IMG/VR virus record: IMGVR_UViG_2671181056_000012
Location: 1 to 17,566 of that record
DNA length: 17,566 bases
Source of the DNA: a virus
Taxonomy: Duplodnaviria; Heunggongvirae; Uroviricota; Caudoviricetes
Direction: 5' to 3' (one strand)
Shown: piece by piece, positions 3,001 to 6,000 of the stretch
Layout: the number at the start of each line of letters is the position of its first letter
Position numbering within the stretch: position 1 is the stretch's first letter
Made by a program: the position numbers

Positions 3001-6000
3001 CCCGAACAGTTGAATTATCATCATCAACACTTTCAGGATGTTCAGCGTCTTTTCCGTCTTCGAGATTTTCATCTTCTTTATTCTCTTCAACTTGGCGCTC
3101 TTGAGTTTCTTCAACTTTCGGTTCTTTATTTTCTTCTACCGGAGTTTCTTCAACCTGAGCGGGTTCTTGTTCTTCTTTGATTTCTTCGATTTGTTCTTTA
3201 GTCATATCGCGTTTAGCCTCCAAATTAACTGTGATAGTATTTAGAGAGCGATTTAAACCGACCGTATCGTCTGCGGGAACGGTGACAAATGAGAGTTCAT
3301 AGGGTGCCCACTTAGTAACAATCAATTGTCCTTTGGTGTAGTCGATGTGATATTCTTTAATGTCATAACCGACAGAAATTTTTTCCATCGTACCTTCAAT
3401 GACTTTATTGCGAATATCATTAGCCAAAGTGCCATGCTTAGAGAATTTAACCAGAGCACGACCTACGTTATCCGCATCGATTCGAGCGTTACAAACGACA
3501 CCAATGTGATTATCGAAATTATGATTAAACAGCAACGGAGCGTTATTATTCAGACGAGACAGATCAACCGCTTCCGGTGTATGTACCAGAATTTCATCTA
3601 ATACCACCATTTCTTGATTTTGCTCATCCCAGAATTGGCGCTGATAAGGCTGTTCACTGGAGAAAGCAATTTCAAATTCGTATTGATCGTTATGCCCTTC
3701 GTTAATAACTCCACCGTAACCGTTAAGATCGCGGCGAAATTTAAGCATTTAATCACCTTTAATTAATTGGGGGCATTGCGCCCCCGTTGGTTATTAGGGA
3801 TCGGTTTGAGAAGGGTTATCCTTGCTCTCACCATCAACGATAATATTTAGTGCGCTCTTTTCGGCTTGAATCTCTGAGAATACTTTTTCAGGATCATCAC
3901 CACGTTCTAATATAACGGCAGTACGTGATTTAAGACCATTTTGAATTAAAGCAATCTCGGCGTTTACGTCTTTAATTGGATCGACGGATTCAAAACGCGG
4001 ACGAATAATAGTTGTATTATCGATAATATGCGGGATTGCAGTAATACGAATCGGAACAATACCACGCGCGGAATAATGTCGAAGGTAACTTTCGAAAATA
4101 GGCAATACAACCGTCTCAATTAATTTGTTTTGCAGTGCTTTAATTCGGTTACGCTGAGTTAATTCACCAAAACGTGCGGCTGAGTAGTTGATCTGTGAAC
4201 AATCTCCTGTTAAGCCCTGTTTGAACACGCCTAAGCCCATTGATACGCTAGTAAACATCGCATCATTGAAGGAATTGAAATCATCACCGCTTTGCGTCGC
4301 CTGGATGCTCTTGATCGTTGCCCCTTCCGGCAATTCCTGAATAGTACCCGGTGCAAAGTCCTGTACTACTTCCGGCGCTTGATATTGTTCATCCTCTTCA
4401 CCAGTATCAAAATCGTCACCAGAATCTTTCGGACGTTCAATAAAGCCCATAGAGCTAGCTGCAATACGTTTCTGGACGATCGCGGTTTCGCGGAACGCTT
4501 CTTGATGCGCAATATCCTTAATCACTGGCAGGAAGTCAGTCACACCACGTAAACTTTCCGCGCACAGTGGCTGGTAGTAGTGGCACACCTGAGAAGCATC
4601 TACGCGATAATTTTCGCCAGTGTAGGTCTGAGTCAGTAGATTGATTTTTCTAAACCAGTATGCTACAGGGCGCATTGTGTCTACGTCATACTCAATCCCC
4701 TGATAGATCGCACGTTCTTTGCTTATTTCACGACTAAGCGACCAGTCGCACCTATCAGCAGACAGAATAGAAACTTGTAACTCATTGTTCTCTTTGGTTA
4801 AAACGATGAAGCATTCTCCACCCTGAACACGTTCAGATTCTGCCATTGCCAGCATTTCACGGAAGTTAAAGCGACCGTTGCGAGAGAAGCGTTTAGCACT
4901 CTGCGCCCACTTCCAGAAAGCATTCTCGATCTGCTTATTCAGTGCGGTGTCAAGTTTGCCATTTGATTTAACGATTGATGGTTTCGGATCAAGCCCCGTA
5001 CCAACAACTTGGTCAACGATATACTGCTTGTATCGCTTACCTACAGCATTGTTTATAGCCAGAGTACGACCCTGATCATAAAGGCGCTTACCGTTTGATT
5101 TGAGAGCCTTATTGAAGGTTCCTGTAATGGTGTCTTGTTGAAGTGATCCATCAATACGATCACCAACCAGTCCTAAACTACGAGTCGCCAGAGATTTCTG
5201 GAATTTTTCTACTTGTTTGTCGATGAAAATTTTTGGTTGTTGCTGGCGGTGATTAGTTTTAACTGGAGTTTCTACCGCCTTTTTGCGTCGAAAAAGATTA
5301 AACATGATTTACCCCTTATCGCGTAAGACGTAATTTGATATTTTTAATCGGGCTAATTCCCTGTTTACGTCGTTCGGCTTGAATTAATTTAGATAACTGA
5401 CGTTCATAATCAGTCTTCAATTGCTGGAGAACACCCAATGACTCATAGGCGAAAGTATTCCCTTTCACGGTCATTTGAGATAATGCGGCTTCGTCCCCAG
5501 ATAAACGGGCGAAAATAACTTGCTCGATTAAGGCGATAGTTTCCCGCAGATATTCTTTTTTGGATTGTTTGGCGAATACTGGCAATACAGTTAATTCCTG
5601 CATTGATACCAGTTCATCTTCCAAAGTTGTTACGATGGTATATTTACCTTCGGCAAAATCTAAGGTTTTAATCTCGTGATTAGCCGGAGTATCATCAACC
5701 TGATAAATGATACCTTTACTATTTCCTACCTGAATTGTTACACCCTCTTCATTCGCCAGCGTGACTTTTTCGCCTTTACGAATTACTAAGGGAATTAGTT
5801 CTAAACTCATAATTACCCCTTATTTAATTGTTATTGGATTAACAATATTTAGGAGTAAGCCGCCCCGAAGGACGGCGAGTTATTAGAACGATGTTACCCA
5901 GCTACGGCCTCTATTTGGGCGTCTGGCGATGTTTTTACGTTGTGGTCGTGTGATTGGCTTATTTTCTTCGATTTGCTCGTCAGATTGCGATTTAGGAGCT

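What the first reader, a model, noticed from the sequence alone, without database searches (positions are those of the whole stretch)
3758..5877. Recurrent GC-rich tetraloop hairpins between late genes without U-tracts
GGGGGC-ATTGC-GCCCCC (3758-3774, between portal and capsid) and GCCGTCC-UUCG-GGGCGGC on the minus strand (5859-5877, between terminase and the next gene) lack downstream U-runs. Similar hairpins occur at 13430-13446 and 13916-13932. They look like RNase-protective or processing stem-loops setting differential stability within the polycistronic late transcript.
Basis: seen in the sequence. Interest (0 to 1): 0.35.

Follow-up and report, generated by a model that had tools for sequence, protein, structure and literature searches.

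The report
Conserved hairpins punctuating prophage late genes
Short, very stable RNA hairpins sit just behind the stop codons of the packaging and head genes of an E. coli/Shigella prophage; they are real and strongly conserved, but they are an ordinary kind of operon punctuation (one is a terminator that lost its U-run) whose proposed role in mRNA stability can only be settled by experiment.

Summary
The hairpins exist and are not chance. The window holds 8 perfect GC-rich hairpins against 0.93±0.95 in shuffles. The description needs correcting:
- Hairpin A lies at 3769-3785, not 3758-3774, and has a pentaloop.
- 13429-13445 has a UUAUUUUU tail and scores as a canonical terminator.

The genes, on the minus strand, are terL, a 164-aa gene, portal and a protease-capsid fusion, in an E. 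coli/Shigella prophage.

Hairpin B, after terL, has an invariant stem. In Salmonella and Providencia relatives it carries a full U-tract, which this lineage has deleted, so it is an ex-terminator. Its U·G pair shows it works as sense-strand RNA.

Hairpin A, between portal and capsid, never scores as a terminator in six lineages. A distant relative, DCP80, has a different-sequence hairpin at the same junction.

Within the E. coli lineage both hairpins vary less than second codon positions of the flanking genes.

It is inferred, not shown.

Side lead: the capsid gene ends in a single conserved UGA, followed by an in-frame 42-codon extension that contains a third U-less hairpin. This may be programmed readthrough.

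The parts
3769..3785 (-). Hairpin A: GGGGGC-GCAAU-GCCCCC, between the portal stop and the capsid ribosome-binding site; no U-tract.
   Evidence: dG -12.4, d -7.2. The stem is invariant in 8 lineages while the loop varies. Diversity is 0.000 within the E. coli lineage.
5859..5876 (-). Hairpin B: GCCGUCC-UUCG-GGGCGGC, 6 nt after the terL stop; tail UUACUCCU. A decayed intrinsic terminator.
   Evidence: dG -12.7, d +9.9. Orthologues in L179-L184 carry a U-tract and score +34 to +46. The U.G pair makes it sense-strand specific.
5851..5858 (-). UUACUCCU, the 5' arm of a helix that pairs with the Shine-Dalgarno region of the 164-aa gene.
   Evidence: The MFE fold has z = -6.8. A CCCU/AGGG core is predicted in the consensus of 12 distinct sequences, with one-sided changes only.
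5813..5820 (-). AGGGGUAA, the Shine-Dalgarno arm of the same helix, upstream of the AUG at 5810-5808.
5827..5846 (-). Inner A/U stem-loop AUUGUUA-AUCCAA-UAACAAU of the terL|164-aa intergenic fold; present only in the E. coli lineage.
   Evidence: Absent from the Salmonella and Providencia sequences.
1699..1719 (-). Third U-less hairpin, CUUCCCCC-GAUUU-GGGGGAAG, 22 nt after the capsid UGA and inside the in-frame extension.
   Evidence: dG -14.4, d -20.1. Four different sequences occupy this place in relatives.
1742..1744 (-). The single UGA stop of the protease-capsid gene, always followed by A.
   Evidence: The 120 best homologue clusters are all 666-670 aa, so the stop is never lost.
1616..1741 (-). 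In-frame 42-codon extension, TPVEPSEPSPDLGEENLIPEPEEESQTVKAKATAKKQRKTKE, ending in tandem UAAUAA at 1610-1615.
   Evidence: The frame is kept through all indels in 20 variants and in L179 and L180.
1585..1607 (-). Canonical intrinsic terminator after the capsid gene and its extension: AGCCCUGCC-UUAAC-GGUGGGGCU followed by UUUUUGUAUG.
   Evidence: d +37.3. A terminator at this place is conserved with compensatory stem changes in relatives.
13915..13933 (-). U-less hairpin CGGGGGA-GAACA-UCCCCCG, 49 nt after the stop of the small-terminase gene and 10 nt before the ribosome-binding site of a 94-aa membrane-protein gene.
   Evidence: d -0.7. An identical copy lies after the intact terS in L178.
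13429..13445 (-). Canonical intrinsic terminator CCGCCCCUUCGGGGCGG followed by UUAUUUUUCU. It does not belong to the U-less class.
   Evidence: d +43.1.

Best explanation
The hairpins are sense-strand RNA structures placed 6-24 nt behind stop codons in the late operon of an E. coli/Shigella prophage.

They fall into two classes. Canonical intrinsic terminators (hairpin plus U-tract) follow the capsid gene, the tail-tube gene and the end of the tail genes. U-tract-less hairpins follow terL, portal, the capsid UGA and, in the full prophage, two tail genes.

Hairpin B is a former terminator whose U-tract was deleted in this lineage. Hairpin A was never a terminator in any lineage examined.

The most likely function of the U-less class is post-transcriptional. 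Each would act as a stable stem that stops 3'-to-5' exonucleases (PNPase, RNase II) after endonucleolytic cleavage in the A/U-rich spacers. Each would therefore define the end of an mRNA segment, and hairpin A would additionally cap the 5' side of the capsid segment. That segment is closed at its 3' end by a second hairpin and a strong terminator.

Shown: existence, non-randomness, conservation, strand specificity, lack of terminator features, and the terminator ancestry of B. Inferred: exonuclease blocking, cleavage sites, and any effect on protein ratios.
For: - Enrichment over shuffles.
- Within-lineage diversity of 0.000 and 0.004 in the hairpins, against 0.06-0.14 at third codon positions.
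- Stems identical across lineages whose portal proteins are only 57-66% identical, while loops and flanks differ.
- A hairpin of different sequence at the same portal|capsid junction in DCP80, which is 36-37% identical in portal.
- Four unrelated hairpin sequences at the post-capsid-stop position.
- The U.G pair in B gives -12.7 kcal/mol on the sense strand against -7.3 on the antisense strand.
- Terminator scores are bimodal: -30 to +10 against +27 to +53.
- Placement is fixed relative to the upstream stop codon (6-24 nt), whereas the distance to the next ribosome-binding site ranges from 0 to more than 150 nt.
- The post-capsid hairpin has no downstream ribosome-binding site nearby, which argues against a purely translational role for the class.
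Against: - There are no transcript data.
- The stems of A and B show no compensatory changes, so the covariation evidence is positional only: a different hairpin at the same place.
- The 6-7-bp stems may be near the lower limit for blocking PNPase (my recollection, not checked here).
- Stabilising the portal segment upstream of the far more abundant capsid protein is not obviously useful.
- The whole 45-nt portal|capsid spacer is invariant, not just the stem, so other constraints such as the ribosome-binding context may contribute.
- Hairpin B's terminator ancestry shows that at least one member arose for another purpose.
Confidence: 0.45

Rival explanations
1. The hairpins are weak intrinsic terminators or pause sites. 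They would trim transcription stepwise along the operon, or block stray read-through in the lysogen while an antiterminated polymerase ignores them during lytic growth.
For: Hairpin B is orthologous to full terminators in Salmonella and Providencia relatives, and its window version still scores +9.9. The 8 nt after hairpin A are entirely A/U (AAUUAAUU), which would give a weak RNA-DNA hybrid. Canonical terminators do sit inside this operon, after the capsid and tail-tube genes, so read-through control is part of its design.
Against: Hairpin A scores below zero in all six lineages, and DCP80's hairpin is followed by an A-run and scores -30.6. E. coli-lineage variants of B have tails CUCCCCCU and AUCCCUAA, scoring -12.6 and -11.2, yet keep the stem. 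Attenuation before the capsid gene would lower the transcript most in demand.
Confidence: 0.2
2. The hairpins are translational insulators. Each would keep the next gene's ribosome-binding site single-stranded or provide a standby platform. In the terL|164-aa spacer, the hairpin would scaffold a fold that sequesters the Shine-Dalgarno sequence and couples translation to terL.
For: Hairpin A ends 21 nt before the capsid AUG in the window, at the 5' edge of a 30S footprint (footprint size from my own knowledge), and its distance to the Shine-Dalgarno sequence stays short, about 8-16 nt, in all lineages. The terL|164-aa spacer folds at -35.7 kcal/mol with z = -6.8, with the Shine-Dalgarno sequence and AUG paired. 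The anti-Shine-Dalgarno CCCU/AGGG core is present in all 12 distinct sequences.
Against: The post-capsid hairpin and the terS hairpin in L178 have no adjacent ribosome-binding site or only variable ones. The anti-Shine-Dalgarno helix shows only one-sided changes, with covariation term -0.03. The outer helix is not conserved outside the E. coli lineage.
Confidence: 0.15
3. The hairpins have no present function of their own. They would be terminator relics and maximally stable palindromes that persist at module boundaries and serve, at most, as short homology patches for recombination between phage modules.
For: The exact 17-mer of hairpin A occurs in more than 120 unrelated viral contigs, mostly as a terminator with a U-tail. 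In L031, similarity to the E. coli lineage begins exactly at hairpin B, after a different terL end. L036 carries the identical hairpin A between diverged flanks.
Against: Diversity in the hairpins is lower than at second codon positions across 27-28 loci. Hairpins of different sequence at the same positions in DCP80 and behind the capsid stop argue for selection on structure.
Confidence: 0.12
4. The hairpins are operators for an RNA-binding protein, such as a phage regulator or an antiterminator of the lambda boxB type.
For: The stems of A and B are identical across lineages. The loop of 13915-13933, GAACA, fits the G-N-R-N-A pentaloop pattern of lambda boxB (the pattern is from my own knowledge; the sequence is).
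Against: The loop of hairpin A is not conserved: GCAAU, UAAAC, UAAUAC. No boxA-like element is evident next to 13915-13933. No Rfam family matches. No candidate binding protein was identified.
Confidence: 0.05

Closest known systems
Rho-independent (intrinsic) terminators of E. coli and its phages
   Same: They share a G+C-rich stem-loop of similar energy (-12 to -15 kcal/mol) just after a stop codon. Hairpin B is the orthologue of a complete terminator in sister lineages.
   Different: The window's A and B have no adjacent U-tract and score -7.2 and +9.9, against +27 to +53 for true terminators in the same window.
Intercistronic mRNA-stabilising stem-loops, such as REP in malE-malF and the puf operon hairpins of Rhodobacter (own knowledge)
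   Same: They are stable hairpins inside a polycistronic operon, on the sense strand, without terminator function. Such elements are proposed to block 3' exonucleases and set segment stability.
   Different: The hairpins here do not belong to a repeated sequence family. No REP-like consensus and no Rfam match was found. No stability data exist for this element.
C(UUCG)G tetraloop hairpins first seen in phage T4 mRNA (PMC4371310)
   Same: Hairpin B is a C(UUCG)G tetraloop hairpin in a phage intercistronic spacer. Several terminators in the window also carry CUUCGG.
   Different: Hairpin A, 13915-13933 and 1699-1719 have pentaloops (GCAAU, GAACA, GAUUU).
The T7 gene 10 arrangement: a 5' stem-loop, then the capsid gene, then the T-phi terminator (own knowledge)
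   Same: The capsid gene is bracketed by a stable hairpin just upstream of its ribosome-binding site and a strong terminator downstream.
   Different: In T7 the 5' hairpin lies at the start of a promoter-initiated transcript. Here no promoter was detected upstream of hairpin A, so a 5' end would need processing.
Recoding-made capsid extensions: T3/T7 gene 10 frameshift, Lactobacillus phage A2, and Listeria phages PSA, A118 and A500 (PMC5009743); Q-beta A1 made by UGA readthrough (own knowledge)
   Same: This applies only to the 1699-1719 hairpin. A capsid gene is followed by a conserved extension reachable only by recoding, with a stable hairpin downstream.
   Different: The known cases in tailed phages use frameshifting, not readthrough. 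Here the extension is in frame after UGA, short and low in complexity, and the hairpin spacing is 10-22 nt, longer than typical stimulators. No protein evidence exists.

Membership tests
Intrinsic (Rho-independent) terminator | G+C-rich stem-loop of about 5-14 bp | tested here: met
   A has 6 G-C pairs and B has 7 pairs, with dG -12.4 and -12.7.
Intrinsic (Rho-independent) terminator | U-tract within 0-2 nt of the stem | tested here: not met
   The tails are AAUUAAUU (A) and UUACUCCU (B). They fail the criterion of 5 T in 8 on the mRNA strand. Scores are -7.2 and +9.9, against +27 to +53 for terminators. The feature is met by orthologues of B in L179-L184 and by 13429-13445.
Intrinsic (Rho-independent) terminator | Measured release of RNA polymerase | not testable with these tools
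   This needs in vitro transcription or Term-seq.
Intercistronic mRNA-stabilising / 3'-exonuclease-blocking stem-loop | Stable hairpin between co-directional genes of one operon, acting on the sense strand | tested here: met
   Gene map. The U.G pair gives -12.7 kcal/mol on the sense strand against -7.3 on the antisense strand for B. Hairpin A is a perfect palindrome, so its strand is not informative.
Intercistronic mRNA-stabilising / 3'-exonuclease-blocking stem-loop | Structure conserved under selection | tested here: met
   Diversity is 0.000 and 0.004, against 0.06-0.14 at third codon positions. Hairpins of different sequence occupy the same sites in DCP80 and behind the capsid stop. No compensatory changes occur within the stems of A or B.
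Intercistronic mRNA-stabilising / 3'-exonuclease-blocking stem-loop | RNA 3' ends at the hairpin, and a longer half-life for the upstream segment | not testable with these tools
   No transcript data are available for this prophage.
REP / repeated extragenic palindromes | Member of a multi-copy family with a shared consensus | tested here: not met
   The hairpins differ in sequence from one another and no Rfam family matches. The hairpin A 17-mer recurs in unrelated phages with unrelated flanks, which points to convergence rather than a mobile repeat.
RNase III processing site (T7 type) | About 20 bp of double-stranded RNA, often with an internal loop | tested here: not met
   The stems are only 6-8 bp. 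The size requirement is from my own knowledge.
C(UUCG)G tetraloop hairpin | UUCG loop closed by a C-G pair | tested here: met
   This is met for hairpin B only. Hairpin A has the loop GCAAU.
Stop-codon readthrough / recoding signal (1699-1719 only) | Leaky stop followed by a conserved in-frame open reading frame | tested here: met
   UGA-A is conserved in 20 E. coli-lineage variants and in L179 and L180. All indels are multiples of 3 and there are no in-frame stops.
Stop-codon readthrough / recoding signal (1699-1719 only) | Amino-acid-level purifying selection on the extension | tested here: inconclusive
   Variable sites are flat across codon positions, 11/14/15 of 42, against 15/12/41 of 51 in the capsid gene end. 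Composition (acidic, then basic) is kept across lineages.
Stop-codon readthrough / recoding signal (1699-1719 only) | Stimulatory structure about 5-9 nt downstream, and an extended protein detected | tested here: inconclusive
   The hairpin starts 10 nt after the UGA in L035, L023 and L179, and in the outer stem of L180, but 22 nt after it in the window. Detecting the protein is not possible with these tools.
Bacterial SECIS (selenocysteine insertion) | Hairpin about 11 nt after the UGA, with a conserved G-U in the apical loop and a bulged U | tested here: not met
   The loops differ (GAUUU, GAAGUU, GAAA, AAGAACCG) and the spacing varies from 10 to 22 nt. No Rfam match was found. The SECIS features are from my own knowledge.

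The most novel reading that the evidence does not exclude
The U-less hairpins are one conserved punctuation mark placed behind stop codons. The copy behind the capsid gene would belong to a programmed UGA readthrough signal. A fixed small fraction of capsid subunits would then carry a 42-residue acidic-then-basic tail. In sister lineages the equivalent short basic peptide appears to be reached in another frame or as a separate 21-codon reading frame. To my knowledge this would be the first capsid variant made by readthrough in a tailed double-stranded-DNA phage, a counterpart of Q-beta A1 and T7 10B.
Probability: 0.3. Interest if true: 0.6.

Novelty: new member of a known kind. Interest (0 to 1): 0.3.

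Why it matters
If the hairpins do set the ends and lifetimes of mRNA segments, this prophage would be a compact natural example of how a single late transcript yields very unequal amounts of terminase, portal and capsid protein. It also offers a natural pair for testing what a terminator hairpin does once termination is gone: the same hairpin with its U-tract in Salmonella and without it in E. coli. In itself this is expected biology and would not surprise a specialist. The more consequential lead is the conserved leaky-looking UGA at the end of the capsid gene. That would extend stop-codon readthrough, known from RNA phages, to a tailed prophage common in E. coli and Shigella.

Tried and rejected
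- **Rfam.** Searches at gathering threshold over the whole window and at E<=5 over 1500-6000 found nothing relevant.
- **Close phage relatives.** Megablast against isolated phages found none. The family is known only as a prophage: 55 of 5426 complete E. coli genomes, plus Salmonella, Providencia and IMG/VR contigs.
- **Mobile or repeated element.** The exact hairpin A 17-mer is in more than 120 viral contigs, but with unrelated flanks and mostly a U-tail. This is convergent use of a maximally stable hairpin, not a repeat family.
- **Terminator for the opposite strand.** Hairpin A scores only +2.9 on the plus strand and hairpin B -42, and no converging genes exist.
- **Promoter in the spacers.** No sigma-70-like site lies near either hairpin on the minus strand. 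The conserved CCCUAAAUA...AUUAAAUAAGGGG motif sits too close to the Shine-Dalgarno sequence to be a -10 element (my inference).
- **Three-way junction coupling terL termination to the 164-aa start.** It is strong in the window, but the outer and inner helices are absent from Salmonella and Providencia, and the consensus fold keeps only hairpin B and a 5-bp anti-Shine-Dalgarno core without compensatory changes.
- **RNase III site and SECIS.** Both were rejected on stem length and on loop or spacing variability.
- **Capsid homologues with the extension fused in frame.** A chimeric query gave only 2 hits, neither covering the extension. The 120 best full-length homologues are all 666-670 aa.
- **More intermediate relatives.** A profile scan of viral contigs and one of metagenome contigs returned only the lineages already in hand.
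- **Identity with the mEpimmI coliphage group (PMC11893012).** Rejected: that group uses tyrosine integrases and has 46% G+C, whereas this prophage has a 'recombinase family protein' at its end and 43% G+C.
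Full report
**What is in the window.** The 17.6-kb window (43% G+C) carries the head-gene end of a prophage, on the minus strand.
- The genes are a lambda gpA-type large terminase (7790..5883), a 164-aa gene (5810..5316), a lambda-type portal (5305..3794), a prohead-protease/major-capsid fusion (3748..1742) and head-completion genes.
- No isolated phage is close (the best portal match is 37%).
- The same module is 80-95% identical in 55 of 5426 complete E. coli genomes. The identical capsid protein is recorded from E. coli and Shigella sonnei.
- In E. coli PK8568 the whole element is about 33 kb. Its head, tail and lysis genes lie on one strand and an annotated recombinase lies at the far end.
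- The terS gene lies about 6 kb upstream of terL. In the window it is split by an IS3-family insertion.

**Checking the observation.** Both primary hairpins exist.
- Hairpin A is at 3769-3785, 11 nt from the stated position. On the mRNA strand it reads GGGGGC-GCAAU-GCCCCC, a pentaloop rather than a tetraloop.
- Hairpin B is at 5859-5876 and reads GCCGUCC-UUCG-GGGCGGC.
- Their tails, AAUUAAUU and UUACUCCU, have no U-run.
- I computed a d'Aubenton-Carafa-type score from hairpin energy per nucleotide plus a weighted U-tail. It separates two classes cleanly. The window's terminators score +27 to +53. Hairpin A scores -7.2, hairpin B +9.9, 13915-13933 scores -0.7 and 1699-1719 scores -20.1.
It is an ordinary terminator at the end of a small terS-plus-membrane-protein unit.
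- Chance is excluded. There are 8 perfect GC-rich hairpins against 0.93±0.95 in 100 dinucleotide shuffles, and all but the one at 14616-14632 lie between the reading frames I treat as genes.

**Comparative evidence, hairpin B.**
- Relatives were recovered from IMG/VR (L006-L038), metagenomes (L164-L176), E. coli genomes (L178), and Salmonella and Providencia genomes (L179-L184). L036, of unknown host, is a further lineage.
- The hairpin B stem, including its U·G pair, is invariant in every lineage except L036.
- In the Salmonella and Providencia lineages, which are 62-66% identical in portal, it is followed by UUUUCUUUUC, UUUCUUUUG, UUUUUAU or UUUUCUAU. These score +34 to +46, so they are complete intrinsic terminators.
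- The alignment shows a 5-10-nt gap in the E. coli lineage exactly where the U-tract lies. Some E. coli-lineage variants have tails with almost no U, CUCCCCCU and AUCCCUAA, scoring -12.6 and -11.2.
- Hairpin B is therefore a terminator that has lost its U-tract.
- The hairpin is nonetheless maintained. Within the E. coli lineage its nucleotide diversity is 0.004, against 0.141 and 0.114 at third and 0.048 and 0.022 at second codon positions of the flanking genes.
- The U·G pair makes the structure much more stable on the mRNA strand (-12.7 kcal/mol) than on the complement (-7.3). The constraint is on sense RNA, not on DNA or an antisense transcript.

**Comparative evidence, hairpin A.**
- The stem GGGGGC/GCCCCC is identical in all eight lineages, while the loop changes (GCAAU, UAAAC, UAAUAC) and the flanks diverge.
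- L036 is only 57% identical in portal yet carries the identical 17-mer between unrelated flanks.
- The tail is never an adjacent U-tract, and the scores run from -10.9 to -0.7.
- Within the E. coli lineage the whole 45-nt spacer has diversity 0.002 and the hairpin 0.000.
- Escherichia phage DCP80 is the only more distant record with the same gene order, at 36-37% portal identity. Its portal|capsid junction holds a hairpin of different sequence, GGGACUUC-UAAC-GAGGUCCC. That hairpin has dG about -12 kcal/mol and z = -4.0, and it is followed by an A-run and then the ribosome-binding site.
- This is structural conservation by position. It is not base-pair covariation.
- The exact hairpin A 17-mer also turns up in more than 120 unrelated viral contigs, mostly with a U-tail as a terminator. 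It is a generic, convergently used stable hairpin rather than a family-specific signal.

**The operon as a whole.**
- In the intact E. coli relative the late strand has eight intergenic GC-rich hairpins.
- Canonical terminators follow the capsid gene, the tail-tube gene (+42.5) and the tail-tip gene.
- U-less hairpins follow terL, portal, the capsid UGA, the gene before the tail fibre, and the tail fibre itself.
- All start 6-24 nt after a stop codon. Their distance to the next ribosome-binding site ranges from zero to more than 150 nt.
- This geometry ties the class to the end of the upstream cistron rather than to the start of the next one.

**Mechanism.**
- The best-supported reading is that the U-less hairpins work in the mRNA as barriers to 3' exonucleases and as boundaries of processed segments. 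The capsid cistron would be bracketed by hairpin A on its 5' side and by a hairpin plus a strong terminator on its 3' side.
It rests on inference from anatomy, conservation and strand specificity, not on RNA data.
- The attenuator rival is strongest for hairpin B because of its ancestry, and weak for hairpin A.
- The translational rival draws on the terL|164-aa spacer. In the window that spacer folds into a three-way junction (-35.7 kcal/mol, z = -6.8) that pairs the Shine-Dalgarno sequence and the start codon.
- Across lineages, however, only hairpin B and a 5-bp CCCU/AGGG core survive, with one-sided changes only.
- A relic or recombination-boundary reading is suggested by L031, where similarity resumes exactly at hairpin B. 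It does not explain the very low diversity.

**A side lead.**
- The capsid gene ends in a single UGA (1744-1742), whereas terL, portal and the extension itself end in tandem UAAUAA.
- After the UGA runs an in-frame 42-codon extension, TPVEPSEPSPDLGEENLIPEPEEESQTVKAKATAKKQRKTKE.
- In 20 distinct E. coli-lineage variants the UGA and the following A are invariant. Every indel is a multiple of three, including a 48-nt deletion, and no in-frame stop occurs.
- Salmonella L180 and Providencia L179 have homologous in-frame extensions after UGA-ACU. L036 and DCP80 encode a similar short basic peptide in another frame, with a possible start codon of its own. Other Salmonella lineages lack the extension.
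- Each UGA lineage has a hairpin 10-22 nt downstream, in four unrelated sequences. The window's copy is 1699-1719.
- Against a protein-level role, variable sites are spread evenly over codon positions. No homologue with the stop replaced was found, since the 120 best clusters are all 666-670 aa.
- Recoding-made capsid extensions are known in tailed phages, but by frameshifting (PMC5009743). Readthrough is known to me only from Q-beta (own knowledge).
- I rate translation of this extension by readthrough as plausible but unproven.

**Comparison with known kinds, and verdict.**
- The hairpins resemble intrinsic terminators in everything but the defining U-tract, so A and B are not filed as terminators.
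- They resemble intercistronic stabiliser hairpins in every testable respect, but the defining property, RNA ends and half-lives, is untestable here.
- Hairpin B is a C(UUCG)G hairpin of the kind first noticed in T4 mRNA (PMC4371310).
- Phage operons are known to contain terminators of widely varying strength (PMC9163698).
- The finding is therefore real, conserved and biologically sensible, but it is a new member of a known kind, with modest interest. The readthrough lead deserves its own follow-up.

Noticed in passing
window 1610-1744 (minus strand): The capsid gene ends in a single conserved UGA-A, followed by an in-frame 42-codon acidic-then-basic extension that ends in UAAUAA. The frame is kept through all indels in 20 variants and in Salmonella and Providencia relatives. 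This is a candidate for programmed stop-codon readthrough. By contrast, terL, portal and the extension itself end in tandem UAAUAA.
   Followed up: partly
window 13983-16169: The small-terminase gene (phrog_57) is split by an IS3-family insertion. Its N-terminal part is 16169..15939 and its C-terminal part 14465..13983. The insertion carries a transposase orfA at 14384-14911 and an orfB with an rve domain at 14947-15942. This copy of the prophage is therefore probably defective in packaging.
   Followed up: partly
window 5811-5882 (minus strand): The spacer between terL and the 164-aa gene folds at -35.7 kcal/mol (z = -6.8), with the Shine-Dalgarno sequence AGGGGUAA paired to UUACUCCU and the start region paired to the terL stop region. 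Only a CCCU/AGGG core is shared with the Salmonella and Providencia relatives.
   Followed up: partly
L031, terL end up to hairpin B: This IMG/VR relative has a different terL 3' end. Its similarity to the E. coli lineage resumes exactly at the first base of hairpin B, which looks like a recombination junction at the hairpin.
   Followed up: no
It is usually followed by a U-run, and sometimes directly by a ribosome-binding site and a start codon. This is a convergently favoured hairpin sequence.
   Followed up: partly
window 13915-13933 (minus strand): The loop GAACA fits the G-N-R-N-A pentaloop pattern of lambda boxB hairpins. I saw no boxA-like sequence next to it. The genes downstream of this hairpin differ between the window and E. 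coli PK8568, where small membrane-protein genes follow it.
   Followed up: no
window 997-1087 (plus strand): ARAGORN calls a 91-nt tRNA-Gln, on the strand opposite the 142-aa head-completion gene and inside it. It is probably a false positive.
   Followed up: no
L185 (PQ671644.1, Escherichia phage DCP80, bases 1-10645): This record is annotated as a 141-kb T4-like Straboviridae phage, yet it begins with a lambda-type terL, 160-aa gene, portal and protease-capsid module related to this prophage. The record may be a chimeric assembly.
   Followed up: no
window 7791-9698: terL is preceded by only 85 nt before a divergent pair of genes (7876-8478 and 8507-8740, plus strand). These converge on a Rha-family regulator gene (8874-9698, minus strand), with back-to-back canonical terminators at 8756-8773 and 8847-8865. 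The late promoter for the head genes must therefore lie in that 85-nt spacer.
   Followed up: no
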